A stretch of 10,331 nt of DNA from a virus, in UHGV virus genome UHGV-0298894; one strand, written 5' to 3'. Below the pieces are notes generated by a model. It saw nothing but the letters and a program-made list of their open reading frames with translations, was not told the DNA's origin and ran no database searches. Made by a program: the position numbers and the translations under genes. This document shows, in pieces, positions 2,344 through 4,389 of the stretch (positions are counted from its first letter, which is position 1; each line of letters opens with the position of its first letter).

Positions 2344-2963
2344 GACTCGAAAGCGTAGCTAAATTTCACTCGCCAAAAAGCCCGATGATGAGCGACTCAC
2401 CACGGGCCACGGCTTCTGACTCTCTTTCCGGTACTGATGTGATGGCTGCTATGGGGATGGCGCAATCACAAGCCGGATTCGGAATGGCTGCATTCTGCGG
2501 TAAGCATGAACTCAGCCAGAACGACAAACAAAAGGCTATCAACTACCTGATGCAATTTGCACACAAGGTATCGGGGAAATACCGTGGTGTGGCAAAGCTC
2601 GAAGGAAATACTAAGGCAAAGGTACTGCAAGTGCTCGCAACATTCGCTTATGCGGATTATTGCCGTAGTGCCGCGACGCCTGGCGCAAGATGCAGAGATT
2701 GTCACGGTACAGGCCGTGCGGTTGATATAGCAAAAACAGAGCAGTGGGGGAGAGTTGTTGAGAAAGAATGCGGAAGATGCAAAGGTGTCGGCTATTCAAG
2801 GATGCCAGCAAGCGCCGCATATCGCGCTGTGACGATGCTAATCCCAAATCTTACCCAACCCACCTGGTCACGCACTGTTAAGCCGCTGTATGACGCTCTG
2901 GTGGTGCAATGCCACAAAGAAGAGTCAATCGCAGACAACATTTTGAATGCGGTCACACGTTAG
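2340..2963 (+). CDS. Q: Late-gene antiterminator Q (lambda type), 207 aa
   Basis: Translation MRLESVAKFHSPKSPMMSDSPRATASDSLSG...CRDCHGTGRAVD...CGRCKGVGYSR...NILNAVTR is essentially the lambda Q sequence as I recall it, including the zinc-binding Cys motif. It is followed by a pR'/qut-like promoter. Confidence 0.95.
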   Translation: MRLESVAKFHSPKSPMMSDSPRATASDSLSGTDVMAAMGMAQSQAGFGMAAFCGKHELSQNDKQKAINYLMQFAHKVSGKYRGVAKLEGNTKAKVLQVLATFAYADYCRSAATPGARCRDCHGTGRAVDIAKTEQWGRVVEKECGRCKGVGYSRMPASAAYRAVTMLIPNLTQPTWSRTVKPLYDALVVQCHKEESIADNILNAVTR

Positions 2964-3005
2964 CAGCATGATTGCCACGGATGGCAACATATTAACGGCA
3001 TGATA

Positions 3006-3034
3006 TTGACTTTTTGAATAAAGTTGGGTAAATT
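3006..3034 (+). promoter_or_regulatory. Late promoter pR' with overlapping qut (Q-utilisation) site
   Basis: -35 TTGACT (3006-3011), 17-nt spacer, -10 TAAATT (3029-3034), immediately downstream of Q. The sequence matches the lambda pR' region from memory. Confidence 0.8.
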
Positions 3035-3040
3035 TGACCC

Positions 3041-3234
3041 AACGATGGGGTAATTCGCTCGTTGTGGTAGTGAGATGAAAAGAGGCGGCGCTTACTACCG
3101 ATTCCGCCTAGTTGGTCACTTCGACGTATCGTCTGGAACTCCAACCATCGCAGGCTGAGAGGTCTGCAAAATGCAATCCCGAAACAGTTCGCAGGTAATA
3201 GTTAGAGCCTGCATAACGGTTTCGGGATTTTTTA
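3041..3234 (+). ncRNA. 6S-type short late leader transcript (pR' to tR')
   Basis: Predicted start about 7 nt after the -10, ending at the tR' U-run, about 194 nt as for lambda 6S RNA. Boundaries are inferred from the promoter and terminator positions. Confidence 0.65.
3175..3234 (+). terminator. Intrinsic terminator tR'
   Basis: Perfect 11-bp inverted repeat AATCCCGAAAC (3175-3185) / GTTTCGGGATT (3219-3229) enclosing an inner GCAGG/CCTGC hairpin (3191-3212), followed by a T-run. Confidence 0.85.
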
Positions 3235-3243
3235 TATCTGTGT

Positions 3244-3259
3244 AACAGGTAAGAGCATT
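3244..3259 (+). repeat. Left copy of 16-nt direct repeat AACAGGTAAGAGCATT
   Basis: Read directly from the sequence; pairs with 3660..3675 (15 of 16 identical). Confidence 0.7.
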
Positions 3260-3659
3260 CTCCCTTATGGGGCTTGGCTTAAATGCACCGAGTGCTCTTA
3301 TCGTTGTGGCAGCACAACGATAGTTTTCGTCAGAGTTGGCGACTTTGCGGGTTTTTAGAAACTGACCACAAAGATAAATGCAAACGATGATTTGATGTTG
3401 ATGGCGGCCTAAGAGACCAAAATCACTGGGTCTTCCGACTCCCAGCTACCAAATTCGGCGCACTGGCCCGGTGTGATTAATAATGGGCACCCATTCAAAT
3501 GTACTCTCGGTAGGTTCGATTCCTGACTAGACCCAGATGGCGACGGGGAGGGTCCAATTGAGTGGGTAACAACGGGCATGTCGCCTTAGTAAATCCCTCA
3601 AGGGTGCGACGCATAGACCGGTACTAGCGTCGCCGTTAGCTCCACGAAACGGAGCGCAC
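3260..3659 (+). other. Non-coding segment in the late leader between tR' and S, apparently absent from lambda; hairpin-rich candidate structured RNA or cargo remnant
   Basis: The Q-stop to S-start distance is 1102 bp here against about 676 bp in lambda (recalled coordinates). No sense-strand ORF exceeds 35 codons. Contains a perfect 10-bp hairpin (3299-3322), hairpins at 3606-3633 and 3639-3655, and a GGTTCGATTCC T-loop-like motif (3513-3523). Confidence 0.5.
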
Positions 3660-3675
3660 AACAGGTAAGAGTATT
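3660..3675 (+). repeat. Right copy of 16-nt direct repeat AACAGGTAAGAGTATT
   Basis: Read directly from the sequence; one mismatch (C/T) against 3244..3259. Confidence 0.7.
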
Positions 3676-4043
3676 TGTAGAGTTCGACTCTCTATCGTGG
3701 GCTTTTTCCAGCGATGCGAGCCATAAATGCTCTTTCCGTTGTGCTGAATTAAGCGAATACCGGAAGCAGAACCGGATCATCAAATGCGTACAGGCGTCAT
3801 CGCCGCCCAGCAACAGCACAACCCAAACTGAGCCGTAGCCACTGGCTATCCTGAATTCATCAGTGATAGTTACGCTGCGGCCTTCTACACATGACCTCGT
3901 GAAAGCGGGTGGCAAGAGGCTGCGCTAACAACCTCATGCCGTTTTGCCCGTGCATATCGGTCACGAACAAATCTGATTACTAAACACAGTAGCCTGGATT
4001 TGTTCTATCAGTAATCGACCTTATTCCTAATTAAATAGAGCAA

Positions 4044-4074
4044 ATCCCCTTATTGGGGGTAAGACATGAAGATG
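4044..4074 (+). promoter_or_regulatory. S translation-initiation control region (sdi hairpin plus dual start Met1/Met3)
   Basis: CCCC-TTATT-GGGGG hairpin (4046-4059) sequesters the Shine-Dalgarno sequence. Tandem starts ATG 4066 (S107 antiholin) and ATG 4072 (S105 holin) give MKMPEK, as in lambda. Confidence 0.6.
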
Positions 4075-4389
4075 CCAGAAAAACATGACCTGTTAGCCGC
4101 CATTCTCGCGGCAAAGGAACAAGGCATCGGGGCAATCCTTGCGTTTGCAATGGCGTACCTTCGCGGCAGATATAATGGCGGTGCGTTTACAAAAACAGTA
4201 ATCGACGCAACGATGTGCGCCATTATCGCCTGGTTCATTCGTGACCTTCTCGACTTCGCTGGACTAAGTAGCAATCTCGCTTATATAACGAGCGTGTTCA
4301 TCGGCTACATCGGTACTGACTCGATTGGTTCGCTTATCAAACGCTTCGCTGCTAAAAAAGCCGGAGTAGAAGATGGTGGAAATCAATAA
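4066..4389 (+). CDS. S: Holin/antiholin S (class I holin, lambda type), 107 aa
   Basis: [39 protein letters not shown]... is near-identical to recalled lambda S, with the dual-start motif and three predicted transmembrane segments. Confidence 0.95.

What the first reader, a model, noticed from the sequence alone, without database searches (positions are those of the whole stretch)
3269..3535. tmRNA/tRNA-like motif set in canonical order: 5' GGGGCU, SsrA-tag-like mini-ORF, GGTTCGATTCC T-loop, ACCCA
Inside the segment, 5' to 3': GGGGCUU (3269-3275) resembles the 5' acceptor strand of tmRNA. The mini-frame GCA AAC GAT GAT TTG ATG TTG ATG GCG GCC TAA (3380-3412) encodes ANDDLMLMAA*, whose first 11 nt resemble the conserved gamma-proteobacterial ssrA resume region (GCAAACGACGA...) and whose product resembles the ANDENYALAA tag. 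GGTTCGATTCC (3513-3523) is a near-consensus T-loop, followed by ...AGACCCA (3529-3535). A helix ACCGAG (3288-3293) / CTCGGT (3506-3511) could play the role of tmRNA helix 2. However the acceptor pairing is imperfect (5 of 7), no CCA is encoded, and the tag ends in MAA rather than LAA. This may be a degenerate or divergent tmRNA-like RNA, or a coincidence.
Basis: seen in the sequence. Interest (0 to 1): 0.5.

Follow-up and report, generated by a model that had tools for sequence, protein, structure and literature searches.

The report
Phage RNA that hijacks host tmRNA
The tag-like mini-frame belongs to a widespread, unannotated phage RNA whose front end is antisense to the host's ribosome-rescue RNA (tmRNA) and whose back end carries its own tmRNA-style tag template but no tRNA-like part, so phages may block or re-program ribosome rescue.

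Summary
All the listed motifs are present, but only the middle one is meaningful. The mini-frame (3380-3412) lies in a ~175-nt RNA (about 3318-3489) conserved in 490 GenBank phage genomes from at least 8 phage groups and in 41 E. coli prophages. It is almost never annotated, and ARAGORN and Rfam do not detect it.

The 3' two-thirds resembles the tmRNA mRNA-like domain. It has a 12-nt spacer with an invariant A at -4, a GCA resume codon, a 10-codon tag with a coding signature, and a stop-codon hairpin. Two H-type pseudoknots follow; the first and part of the second covary.

There is no tRNA-like domain. GGGGCTT, the T-loop and ACCCA sit in apical loops of separate, interchangeable stem modules that are shuffled or missing in relatives.

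The conserved 5' arm (3318-3369) is antisense to host tmRNA nt 55-108 (43 predicted bp). It matches the host better than the RNA's own template in 63 of 63 relatives.

Best reading (0.42): the RNA docks on host tmRNA, masks the host resume codon and tag, and offers its own template. Main rival (0.27): a pure anti-tmRNA inhibitor. No description was found in the literature searched.

The parts
3006..3034 (+). Late promoter (lambda PR'-like), TTGACT-17-TAAATT. This is context: it is the only promoter-like site upstream, so in this prophage the RNA would be made as part of the Q-dependent late transcript.
   Evidence: Promoter scan. The region is ~98% identical to the phage lambda Q-S intergenic region.
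3175..3236 (+). tR'-like terminator (hairpin 3175-3189/3215-3229 plus a T run) that ends the short lambda 6S-type transcript. Q antitermination is needed to read into the cassette. This is context.
   Evidence: Inverted repeat I1. Identical to lambda. The name tR' comes from my own knowledge of lambda.
3241..3308 (+). Long-stem module A1. The same loop occurs after the core in phage MK54.
   Evidence: Repeats D1 and I6. Comparison with MK54, L019 and others. Stem covariation across 31 module variants.
3299..3322 (+). Small hairpin TATCGTTGTG/CACAACGATA that abuts the start of the antisense arm.
   Evidence: Inverted repeat I5, 10/10 complementary. Also picked up by the terminator-like scan.
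3318..3369 (+). Antisense arm, complementary to host tmRNA (ssrA) nt 55-108.

- 3321-3331 TAGTTTTCGTC pairs with nt 96-106 (tag codons 3-6).
- 3335-3337 pairs with nt 93-95.
- 3339-3344 GCGACT pairs with nt 86-91 (the resume-codon junction).
- 3345-3350 TTGCGG pairs with nt 75-80.
- 3352-3357 TTTTTA pairs with nt 68-73.
- 3362-3367 CTGACC pairs with nt 57-62.
   Evidence: BLAST and RNAduplex give 43 bp and -49.5 kcal/mol. The local alignment score is 42 against a shuffle mean of 16.2 and maximum of 26, 0 of 1000. The top 70 of 2,220 host windows are all antisense ssrA. The arm matches the host better than its own template in 63 of 63 relatives.
3368..3379 (+). A 12-nt single-stranded spacer, ACAAAGATAAAT, before the resume codon. 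The A at -4 (3376) is invariant and corresponds to tmRNA A86.
   Evidence: Alignment A2 invariant columns. The role of A86 and the 12-nt distance from PK1 come from PMC2481249.
3380..3412 (+). Tag template: GCA resume codon, 10 codons encoding ANDDLMLMAA, then TAA.
   Evidence: 19 different tags in 26 distinct frames among the enteric-type members. These tags are always 10 codons, start AN[DE], end [AV]A, and have no indels. The stop is TAA, TGA or TAG at the same place. Eight of 9 single-nt differences fall at codon position 3.
3399..3425 (+). Helix-5-like hairpin that encloses the end of the tag and the stop codon (TGAT 3399-3402 with ATCA 3422-3425).
   Evidence: Pair counts for A2 columns 90-93/119-122. 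Column pair 93-119 is AU 30, GC 22, GU 4.
3426..3458 (+). First H-type pseudoknot: CTGGG 3426-3430 with CCCAG 3441-3445, and CCGA 3435-3438 with TCGG 3455-3458.
   Evidence: Six of 9 pairs show compensatory double changes and 99% of cells are paired. These are also the top mutual-information column pairs.
3459..3488 (+). Second H-type pseudoknot: CGCAC 3459-3463 with GTGTG 3471-3475, and GCCC 3466-3469 with GGGC 3485-3488.
   Evidence: Column pair 160-168 is CG 40, GC 17. The second stem is invariant in A2 but is replaced by GACGGGAG/CTCCCGTC, GCCCAC/GTGGGC, CCCCGT/ACGGGG or GGCTTT/AAAGCC in more distant members.
3490..3566 (+). Module B. The base stem is CCCATTCAA 3490-3498 with TTGAGTGGG 3558-3566.
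   Evidence: Comparison with L004, L006, L001, L070 and others. T-stem CAGG/CCTG changes to CGGG/CCCG, and the hairpin GACCC changes to GGCCC.
3567..3656 (+). Accessory domain of three hairpins, shared with Bas77-type phages. Function unknown.
   Evidence: Alignment with Bas77. GCGACGC/GCGTCGC changes to GCAGCGA/TCGTTGC, and GCTCC/GGAGC changes to GCCAC/GTGGC.
3657..3743 (+). Long-stem module A2. The 5' strand is 3657-3675 and the 3' strand is 3726-3743. The loop holds a second T-arm-like hairpin (TAGAG 3678-3682, loop TTCGACT, CTCTA 3690-3694). Phage lambda has the same stem with a different 40-nt loop.
   Evidence: Repeat D1, lambda alignment, module covariation.

Best explanation
Window ~3318-3489 encodes a phage non-coding RNA derived from tmRNA but lacking the tRNA-like domain.

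The proposed mechanism has three steps.
1. The 5' arm base-pairs with the host's own tmRNA from the 3' half of pseudoknot 1 through tag codon 6. This buries the host's frame-setting A86, its resume codon and the start of its tag.
2. Directly 3' of that duplex the phage RNA presents its own 12-nt spacer, GCA resume codon, 10-codon tag, stop codon, helix 5 and two pseudoknots.
3. A ribosome rescued by the alanine-charged host tRNA-like domain with SmpB would then resume on the phage template and add a phage-specified tag. The result is a two-piece tmRNA assembled in trans.

In this prophage the RNA is part of the Q-dependent late leader. In lytic phages it has its own promoter or follows a tRNA or a stem module, so the antisense arm sits at or near the 5' end.

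Shown here: the family, its structure, the coding signature of the tag, the absence of a tRNA-like domain, and the specific antisense complementarity. Inferred: that the duplex forms in vivo and that the phage frame is decoded.
For: **Family and structure.** The core occurs in 490 GenBank phage records, 285 of them at >=80% coverage. It is also in ~90 IMG/VR contigs and 41 E. coli genomes, and is nearly always unannotated. On 57 distinct sequences, 94.6% of cells are paired and 12 pairs show double changes. The covariation score is 0.223 against 0.106 for shuffles (0 of 500), and slid controls pair 29-51%.

**The tag is decoded.**
- The enteric-type members carry 19 tags, all 10 codons, all AN[DE]...[AV]A.
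- There are no indels inside the frame, although indels occur on both sides.
- The third base of codon 10 uses all four nucleotides.
- Eight of 9 single-nt differences are at position 3, and 5 are synonymous against 0.235 expected.
- The stop varies between TAA, TGA and TAG at a fixed position.
- The A at -4 is invariant, matching tmRNA A86, the main frame determinant (PMC2481249).

**No tRNA-like domain.** ARAGORN finds none in 91 loci, and Rfam finds only local tag matches.

**Antisense arm.**
- An 11/11 and a 13/14 reverse-complement match to E. coli ssrA, plus GCGAC.
- 43 bp at -49.5 kcal/mol.
- Alignment score 42, against a shuffle maximum of 26 and a sense-strand score of 15.
- The top 70 of 2,220 host-locus windows are all antisense ssrA.
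- Cofold ddG of -15.9 against -5.1 +/- 3.3 for shuffled arms.
- The arm matches the host better than its own template in 63 of 63 relatives (33.4 vs 13.1), while the phage tags themselves vary.
- Different subfamilies keep the complementarity by different sequences.

**Host match and geometry.** The target is invariant across most sampled Enterobacterales, including Erwinia and two Pantoea genomes. An N4-like member of unknown host has ATTGTTCGTC, the complement of the GACGAACAAT tag variant seen in Photorhabdus tmRNA, and scores 35 against 27 in favour of that type, the reverse of the enteric arms. Promoters in MK54, Bas77 and Mordin place the 5' end at the arm. The spacer length equals the native 12 nt from PK1. 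PK1 and the tag can be replaced without loss of function, and lambda-immP22 needs ribosome release by tmRNA but not the tag itself.
Against: - Nothing here shows that the RNA is made, processed to this size, pairs with tmRNA, or is decoded.
- A template tethered only on its 5' side, with the host's own template still attached, has no precedent. Loading it into the mRNA channel may be sterically impossible.
- Part of the frame's conservation could come from helix 5 rather than coding, because codons 9-10 are in the stem.
- The arm needs host PK1 to unfold, and the thermodynamic advantage computed without pseudoknot energies is moderate (z about -3).
- The host target is almost invariant, so true host-matched covariation rests on a single variant whose host is unknown.
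- The arm could also form a local helix (GTTTT with GAAAC), which might explain some of its conservation.
- The benefit of a different tag to the phage is unknown.
Confidence: 0.42

Rival explanations
1. Pure anti-tmRNA antisense RNA, or sponge. The arm pairs with host tmRNA and blocks resumption, or triggers its cleavage, so trans-translation or tagging is shut down. The tmRNA-like 3' part only stabilises the RNA or recruits tmRNA-binding factors (S1, SmpB) to speed pairing. The phage frame is not translated.
For: The antisense evidence is the same as above. Base pairing around the resume codon is known to inactivate tmRNA (PMC2481249). A phage-encoded reduced tmRNA that inhibits host tmRNA already exists: the DS6A form that has only the tRNA-like domain (PMC11915505). 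This rival needs no unprecedented ribosome step.
Against: It does not explain the fixed 10-codon length, the in-frame stop that changes identity but not position, the third-position bias, the conserved AN[DE] and [AV]A ends, or the invariant A at -4. Lambdoid phages such as lambda-immP22 need ribosome release by tmRNA, so full inhibition would seem costly.
Confidence: 0.27
2. Decoy with no pairing. The RNA mimics the mRNA-like/pseudoknot part of tmRNA to soak up a host factor or a defence sensor that watches tmRNA, for example proteins with SmpB-like domains.
For: The element is in many unrelated phage groups and often sits beside phage tRNA genes, as counter-defence RNAs tend to. CoCoNuT defence systems carry SmpB-like domains predicted to bind tmRNA (PMC10542128).
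Against: It does not explain why the arm is complementary to the host tmRNA rather than similar to it: the sense-strand score is at background. It also does not explain the coding signature of the tag.
Confidence: 0.1
3. A self-contained but very divergent tmRNA, one-piece as the first reader proposed or circularly permuted/two-piece. Its tRNA-like domain would be hidden in the flanking stem modules, which carry T-arm-like hairpins.
For: T-arm-like hairpins recur in module loops: 3511-3525 and 3678-3694 here, and GGTTCGAATCC-type loops in L009, L022, L034, L079, L080. The stem 3' strand abuts the arm, as helix 2 abuts PK1 in permuted genes. The best weak Rfam matches are to permuted and beta tmRNA models.
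Against: Most module loops have no T-arm, and those that do place it on either side of the loop. No conserved acceptor stem, G3:U70 or CCA was found. In promoter-driven versions the RNA starts at the arm with no upstream module. CS01 has no module downstream. ARAGORN and Rfam find no tRNA-like domain in any of 91 loci.
Confidence: 0.06
4. Non-functional relic of an inverted capture of host ssrA DNA, or an ordinary small protein gene on either strand.
For: The arm plus template looks like an inverted partial duplication of ssrA. Some GenBank records annotate hypothetical proteins over the region.
Against: A relic would not be kept in 490 phage genomes of at least 8 groups with compensatory helix changes. 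The frame has no start codon and an in-frame upstream TAG. Indels of 1 and 3 nt flank the frame, which breaks any long ORF on either strand.
Confidence: 0.03

Closest known systems
tmRNA (SsrA), standard one-piece form (Rfam RF00023)
   Same: A resume codon GCA preceded by an A/U-rich spacer with the critical A at -4. A short tag frame starting AND and ending in Ala. A stop codon inside a helix-5-like hairpin. H-type pseudoknots follow.
   Different: No acceptor stem, T-arm, D-loop analogue or CCA, so it cannot be charged or bind SmpB and EF-Tu by itself. It has two small pseudoknots instead of PK2-PK4. In place of helix 2 and PK1 it has a segment antisense to host tmRNA. It scores below threshold with every tmRNA model.
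Two-piece (circularly permuted) tmRNA of alpha- and beta-proteobacteria and cyanobacteria (RF01849-51, RF04321)
   Same: Function would rest on two RNA molecules held together by base pairing, one giving the tRNA-like part and one the coding part. The weak Rfam matches are to these models.
   Different: Both pieces of known two-piece tmRNAs come from one gene of the same genome and pair through the acceptor stem and helix 2. Here the coding piece would be viral, the acceptor piece would be an intact host tmRNA, and the contact would be antisense pairing to the host's own template.
CDS-less tmRNA of mycobacteriophage DS6A (tRNA-like domain only)
   Same: A phage-encoded, reduced tmRNA derivative. 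[quoted passage not shown]
   Different: It is the mirror image. DS6A keeps the tRNA-like domain and lacks the tag frame, whereas this RNA keeps the tag frame and lacks the tRNA-like domain, and it adds an antisense arm.
Prophage-encoded anti-sRNAs and RNA sponges (for example AgvB and AsxR of EHEC prophages; named from my own knowledge)
   Same: A trans-acting phage RNA that base-pairs with a specific abundant host non-coding RNA. It is encoded in lambdoid prophages.
   Different: The target is tmRNA rather than an Hfq-dependent sRNA. The pairing is much longer (about 43 bp in 9 runs). The RNA carries a functional-looking template domain.
YrlA / bacterial Y RNAs (tRNA-like module on a long stem). 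Relevant only to the flanking stem modules.
   Same: A long stem closed by 5' and 3' strands, with an apical domain that can contain a T-arm.
   Different: There is no adjacent Ro60 gene and no Rfam match at E<=10. The apical loops are hypervariable and most lack a T-arm.

Membership tests
tmRNA (one-piece) | tRNA-like domain: a 7-bp acceptor stem formed by the 5' and 3' ends, with G3:U70 and a 3' (A)CCA | tested here: not met
   GGGGCTT with TAGACCC gives 5 of 7 pairs, with G3:C70, and no CCA. The pairing partners are not kept together in relatives. ARAGORN finds none.
tmRNA (one-piece) | A T-arm with a T-loop directly 5' of the acceptor 3' strand, recognised by tmRNA/tRNA covariance models | tested here: not met
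   The T-loop word is present, but its stem has only 4 pairs including one G:U. It lies inside a variable module loop. Rfam tmRNA scores 7.1 bits against a gathering score of 47, and there is no tRNA hit at E<=10.
tmRNA (one-piece) | Tag reading frame with a resume codon, an upstream frame-setting sequence (A86 equivalent) and an in-frame stop | tested here: met
   Criteria taken from PMC2481249.
tmRNA (one-piece) | Helix 5 and pseudoknots downstream of the tag | tested here: met
   A helix-5-like hairpin and two H-type pseudoknots. The hairpin, the first pseudoknot and part of the second covary. There are only two pseudoknots, and their sequences are unrelated to E. coli PK2-PK4.
tmRNA (one-piece) | Alanine charging, SmpB binding and tagging activity | not testable with these tools
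   These need biochemistry or genetics.
Two-piece / permuted tmRNA | The acceptor piece (helix 2 3' strand, T-arm, acceptor 3' strand, CCA) is encoded upstream of the coding piece in the same gene | tested here: not met
   Upstream modules have hypervariable loops and most lack a T-arm. Promoter-driven members have no upstream module. RF04321 matches only the tag region and skips its tRNA-domain positions.
Trans-acting antisense RNA against host tmRNA (proposed new class) | Extended, specific complementarity to the target that is conserved across the family and not explained by self-pairing | tested here: met
Trans-acting antisense RNA against host tmRNA (proposed new class) | Arm sequence co-varies with the host target sequence | tested here: inconclusive
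   The target is invariant in most sampled Enterobacterales. One variant (L208/L251) matches the GACGAACAAT tag type better, 35 against 27, but its host is unknown.
Trans-acting antisense RNA against host tmRNA (proposed new class) | Physical duplex with SsrA in infected cells | not testable with these tools
   This needs RIL-seq/CLASH, psoralen crosslinking or pull-down.
YrlA / Y RNA (flanking stem modules only) | Match to the YrlA covariance model and linkage to a Ro60 (rsr) gene | tested here: not met
   No Rfam match at E<=10 in 2950-4100. The neighbours are Q, holin and lysis genes.

The most novel reading that the evidence does not exclude
Phages of enterobacteria, and probably of other gamma-proteobacteria, carry a mobile RNA cassette that converts the host's tmRNA into a chimeric two-piece tmRNA. 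The viral RNA hybridises to the host template region, silences the host tag, and makes rescued ribosomes add a virus-specified tag. Phages would thereby control the fate of every protein from a stalled ribosome during infection.
Probability: 0.4. Interest if true: 0.95.

Novelty: new variant of a known kind. Interest (0 to 1): 0.85.

Why it matters
Trans-translation is the main ribosome-rescue and quality-control pathway of bacteria, and it is a drug target. Phages were known either to depend on it or, rarely, to carry complete tmRNA genes.

An RNA that pairs with host tmRNA and brings its own tag template would be a new way for a virus to take over a core translation pathway. It would be the first natural tmRNA assembled in trans from two genomes, and a natural example of antisense control of tmRNA.

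The element is in about 1% of GenBank phage genomes, including model and therapeutic phage groups: T1-like, Vi1-like, Felix O1-like, N4-like, P1-like and lambdoid. It is not annotated anywhere, so it is a blind spot in phage genome annotation.

The hypothesis is directly testable with existing strains: BASEL phages Bas77-81, MK54-like phages, and E. coli lysogens.

The finding also shows that a stem-loop in the late leader of phage lambda itself is a member of a modular RNA system whose role is unknown.

Tried and rejected
- **One-piece tmRNA as proposed.** Rejected by ARAGORN, by Rfam and by comparison with relatives.
- **Permuted tmRNA with the tRNA-like domain in the stem-module loops.** I examined hairpin 3657-3743 (T-arm followed by a closed 8-bp stem) and the TCCC-TTAT-GGGG mini-helix in loop A1, which would give G1-C, G2-C, G3:U. 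I rejected both because the loops are hypervariable and the features are not shared.
- **A PK1 equivalent in cis.** The helices CTTTG/CAAAG and GGTTT/AAACT are only 84-88% paired with almost no covariation. One isolated covarying column pair (33-55) could not be extended.
- **Host-specific covariation using Erwinia, Pantoea and Aeromonas phages.** This was uninformative, because their hosts' tmRNA is the same in the target region.
- **Single BLAST matches against host loci.** Not discriminating, since 11-13-mers occur by chance. A gapped local alignment was needed.
- **RNAduplex z-scores.** Only moderate (-3.4 to -6.5 in the main group, -1.4 to -3.1 in the Erwinia-type members), because the model tolerates large loops.
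- **Host of L208/L251.** Not identified. Only its tRNA-Arg and an N4-like SSB match GenBank phages.
- **Literature.** Searches for phage tmRNA-like, antisense or mimic RNAs, for Drexlerviridae plus tmRNA, and for six tag strings found no description. Version 1 of the CoCoNuT preprint, which mentions tmRNA 54 times, could not be read. The supplements of the tmRNA database paper that are held hold no phage list.
- **One script timed out** and was rerun.
Full report
**Context**

The window is a lambdoid prophage segment. It carries nin-region ORFs, a Q antiterminator ORF (2340-2963), then a 1.1-kb non-coding stretch, then holin, endolysin, Rz-type genes and terminase.

From the end of Q to the start of the holin gene it is ~98% identical to phage lambda. 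The one exception is that the 40-nt apical loop of one lambda stem-loop is replaced by a ~465-nt cassette at about 3260-3725. The finding lies inside this cassette. The only promoter-like site upstream is the PR'-type late promoter at 3006-3034. It is followed by the tR'-type terminator hairpin at 3175-3229. In this prophage the cassette would therefore be transcribed only as part of the Q-antiterminated late transcript (inference).

**Checking the observation**

ARAGORN finds no tRNA or tmRNA, and Rfam finds nothing at gathering thresholds.

With permissive thresholds, the only relevant matches are local ones to the tag region: tmRNA_permuted at 22.9 bits, beta_tmRNA at 16.4 bits, and 7.1 bits at the T-loop. 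The T-loop word alone is expected about 0.5 times in the window.

**The mini-frame belongs to a large, unannotated RNA family**

- Window 3317-3494 matches 490 GenBank phage records, 285 of them at >=80% coverage. By host genus: Salmonella 192, Klebsiella 107, Escherichia 105, Shigella 23, Erwinia 22, Citrobacter 10 and others.
- It also matches ~90 IMG/VR contigs and 41 complete E. coli genomes, where nothing is annotated under it.
- Members occur in Drexlerviridae, Ackermannviridae, Chaseviridae, Ounavirinae, Grimontviridae, Schitoviridae, P1-like Punavirus and lambdoid prophages.
- They usually lie in intergenic gaps, and 23 of 91 have phage tRNA genes within about 1.5 kb upstream or 2.5 kb downstream.

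**Structure of the core**

The structure was tested on 57 distinct sequences (alignment A2). A helix-5-like hairpin around the stop codon and the first of two consecutive H-type pseudoknots are supported by compensatory changes; in the second pseudoknot one pair of the first stem covaries.

- 94.6% of cells are paired and 12 pairs have changes on both sides.
- The covariation score is 0.223 against 0.106 for shuffles (0 of 500).
- Controls with the 3' partner slid by 1-3 columns pair only 29-51%.
- The one stem that is invariant in that set is replaced by other complementary sequences in more distant members.

**The frame behaves as a coding frame**

- The enteric-type members examined carry 19 different tags. 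All are 10 codons, begin AN[D/E] and end [A/V]A.
- The frame has no indel, while indels occur on both sides.
- The last codon is GCN with all four third bases.
- Eight of 9 single-nucleotide differences between frames are at third positions. Five are synonymous, against 23.5% expected.
- The stop codon is TAA, TGA or TAG at the same position.
- The A four bases before the resume codon is invariant. In E. coli tmRNA that position (A86) is the main determinant of frame choice. In addition, the resume codon lies 12 nt from PK1, and both PK1 and the tag sequence are replaceable (PMC2481249).
- The frame has no start codon and has an in-frame TAG upstream (sequence).

**There is no tRNA-like domain**

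The core is flanked by 'long-stem modules'. Each is a 17-bp stem with the layout 6 bp, a bulged A, GG:CC, a U.U mismatch, then 9 bp. The stem covaries strongly, with many G:U pairs on this strand. One caveat is that the modules were selected for pairing.

The stems close apical loops of 30-290 nt that differ completely between phages.

That loop follows the core in MK54 and is absent in L004.
- T-arm-like hairpins recur in some loops, on either side, but most loops have none.
- Promoter-like sites (TTGACA-17-TAGATT or TAAGAT) in MK54, Bas77 and Mordin put the RNA 5' end immediately before the conserved core.
- In L208 the core starts right after the CCA of a tRNA-Arg gene.

**The decisive extra observation: an antisense arm**

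The conserved 5' part of the core is the reverse complement of host tmRNA. Against E. coli ssrA:

- TAGTTTTCGTC (3321-3331) is a perfect complement of nt 96-106, which are tag codons 3-6.
- TTTGCGGGTTTTTA (3344-3357) complements nt 68-81 at 13 of 14 positions.
- GCGAC complements the resume-codon junction.

RNAduplex predicts 43 bp (41 Watson-Crick) between 3318-3369 and tmRNA 55-108, at -49.5 kcal/mol.

Controls:

- A gapped local alignment to the antisense strand scores 42. Dinucleotide shuffles give a mean of 16.2 and a maximum of 26 (0 of 1000). The sense strand scores 15.
- Against 2,220 windows from 80 bacterial smpB-ssrA loci, on both strands, the top 70 windows are all the antisense of ssrA. 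The background maximum is 28.
- Cofolding favours the hybrid by -15.9 kcal/mol, against -5.1 +/- 3.3 for shuffled arms.

In all 63 family members tested, the arm matches host tmRNA better than the RNA's own spacer and tag (mean 33.4 against 13.1), even though the phage tags vary widely. The arm's partner is therefore the host RNA and not the RNA itself.

Subfamilies keep the complementarity with different sequences. Examples are GCGAC-TTT-GCGG, GCGATTATGCGG, GCGATTATTTTT and GCGTCTATTTT. Several of the substitutions preserve pairing through wobble pairs.

The variable bit inside the arm faces GCAAAC. That is the one stretch shared by host and phage templates, so its variability would limit self-pairing (inference).

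**Host matching**

The target region is invariant in most of the Enterobacterales tmRNAs recovered, including Erwinia and two Pantoea genomes; Yersinia, Sodalis and two other Pantoea genomes differ. The Erwinia and Aeromonas phage members therefore do not give a covariation test.

One N4-like member from metagenomes (L208/L251, host unknown) has the same architecture with a 13-codon tag. Its arm box is ATTGTTCGTC, the complement of GACGAACAAT, the tag-codon variant seen in Photorhabdus tmRNA. This arm scores 35 against that type and 27 against the E. coli type. Four enteric arms show the reverse: 42/34/28/28 against 31/25/18/19. This is suggestive but not decisive.

**Mechanism**

The coding signature says the frame is decoded. 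Decoding of a start-less tmRNA-type frame needs an alanine-charged tRNA-like domain with SmpB, which the RNA lacks. The arm offers a way to borrow one.

Pairing would bury the host's A86, resume codon and first six codons. The phage strand would leave the duplex at the end where host helix 2 enters it. The phage resume codon would then sit 12 nt from a helical element, as in native tmRNA.

I therefore favour a trans-assembled chimeric tmRNA that swaps the tag (confidence 0.42). This fits the fact that lambda-immP22 needs ribosome release by tmRNA but not the tag itself.

The steps from 'complementary' to 'pairs in vivo', and from there to 'is decoded', are inferred.

The main rival is a pure antisense inhibitor whose 3' domain serves stability or factor recruitment (0.27). 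The other rivals are a decoy without pairing (0.10), a hidden tRNA-like domain (0.06) and a relic or protein gene (0.03).

**Comparison with known systems**

- The element fails the defining test for tmRNA membership, which is the tRNA-like domain. It passes the tests for the template, helix 5 and pseudoknots.
- It is the mirror image of the tag-less tmRNA of phage DS6A, which inhibits host tmRNA (PMC11915505).
- It would work like a two-piece tmRNA, but with the pieces from two genomes.
- The current tmRNA database and its Rfam models list standard, permuted, intron-containing and CDS-less forms only.

Literature searches found no description of this element or of its tags. Subscription-only papers were not searchable.

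**Verdict**

I rate it a new variant of a known kind. It would be categorically new in mechanism if the chimeric-tmRNA model holds. Interest is 0.85.

Noticed in passing
window 3241-3308 and 3657-3743; lambda NC_001416 about 44,785-44,865 (L189 ~985-1065): A conserved 'long-stem module' closes hypervariable apical loops. The stem is CACAAC/CTATC-A-GG-T-AAGAGCATT ... AGTGCTCTT-T-CC-GTTGTG/GATAG, with a bulged A and a U.U mismatch. It occurs in tandem arrays in many enterobacterial phages. Phage lambda itself has one copy just after tR', overlapping or next to the annotated orf-64. Its function is unknown; it may be an RNase III-type processing site or a scaffold.
   Followed up: partly
module loops, e.g. 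window 3511-3525 and 3678-3694; L009, L022, L034, L079, L080 (26 coordinates): T-arm-like hairpins (GGTTCGAATCC-type loops on 4-7-bp stems) recur inside the variable module loops. They sit next to either the 5' or the 3' strand of the stem, without the rest of a tRNA. They could be tRNA-gene debris or tRNA-mimicking handles.
   Followed up: partly
window 3567-3656: A ~90-nt accessory domain of three hairpins is shared with Bas77-type lytic phages and shows compensatory changes. It is absent from most family members. Function unknown.
   Followed up: no
L100 5324-5815 (E. coli CH4794 prophage): In some otherwise near-identical prophages, an HNH endonuclease gene sits between the Q gene and the cassette. 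The window has none. It may be linked to mobility of this intergenic region.
   Followed up: no
E. coli genome collection; SJ46 L186: 269 of the 498 partial matches to the 471-nt query in complete E. coli genomes are on plasmids. The P1-like phage-plasmid SJ46 carries a family member with a different 3' pseudoknot domain, so many of these hits may be P1-like phage-plasmids.
   Followed up: partly
L070 and L027 module loops (26 output): A 16-nt motif, GAACAGGCAGCGTAAC, is repeated twice inside some module loops. This suggests a binding site or aptamer-like unit.
   Followed up: no
L208 5437-5512 / L251; L185 (Mordin), L188 (KP8), L003 (MK54): The element is embedded in, or directly abuts, phage tRNA gene clusters: Arg-TCT, Met-CAT, Ser-GCT and others. 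In L208 it begins at the base after the tRNA-Arg CCA, so tRNA processing enzymes may generate its 5' end.
   Followed up: partly
IMG/VR loci L196, L200, L202, L209, L211 and others: The same scan recovered about 25 complete, ARAGORN-detectable tmRNA genes on environmental viral contigs, with tags such as ANDNFAPSELALAA and ANESVYRLAA. This shows that ATAAAT-GCAAACGA is a common natural resume context.
   Followed up: no
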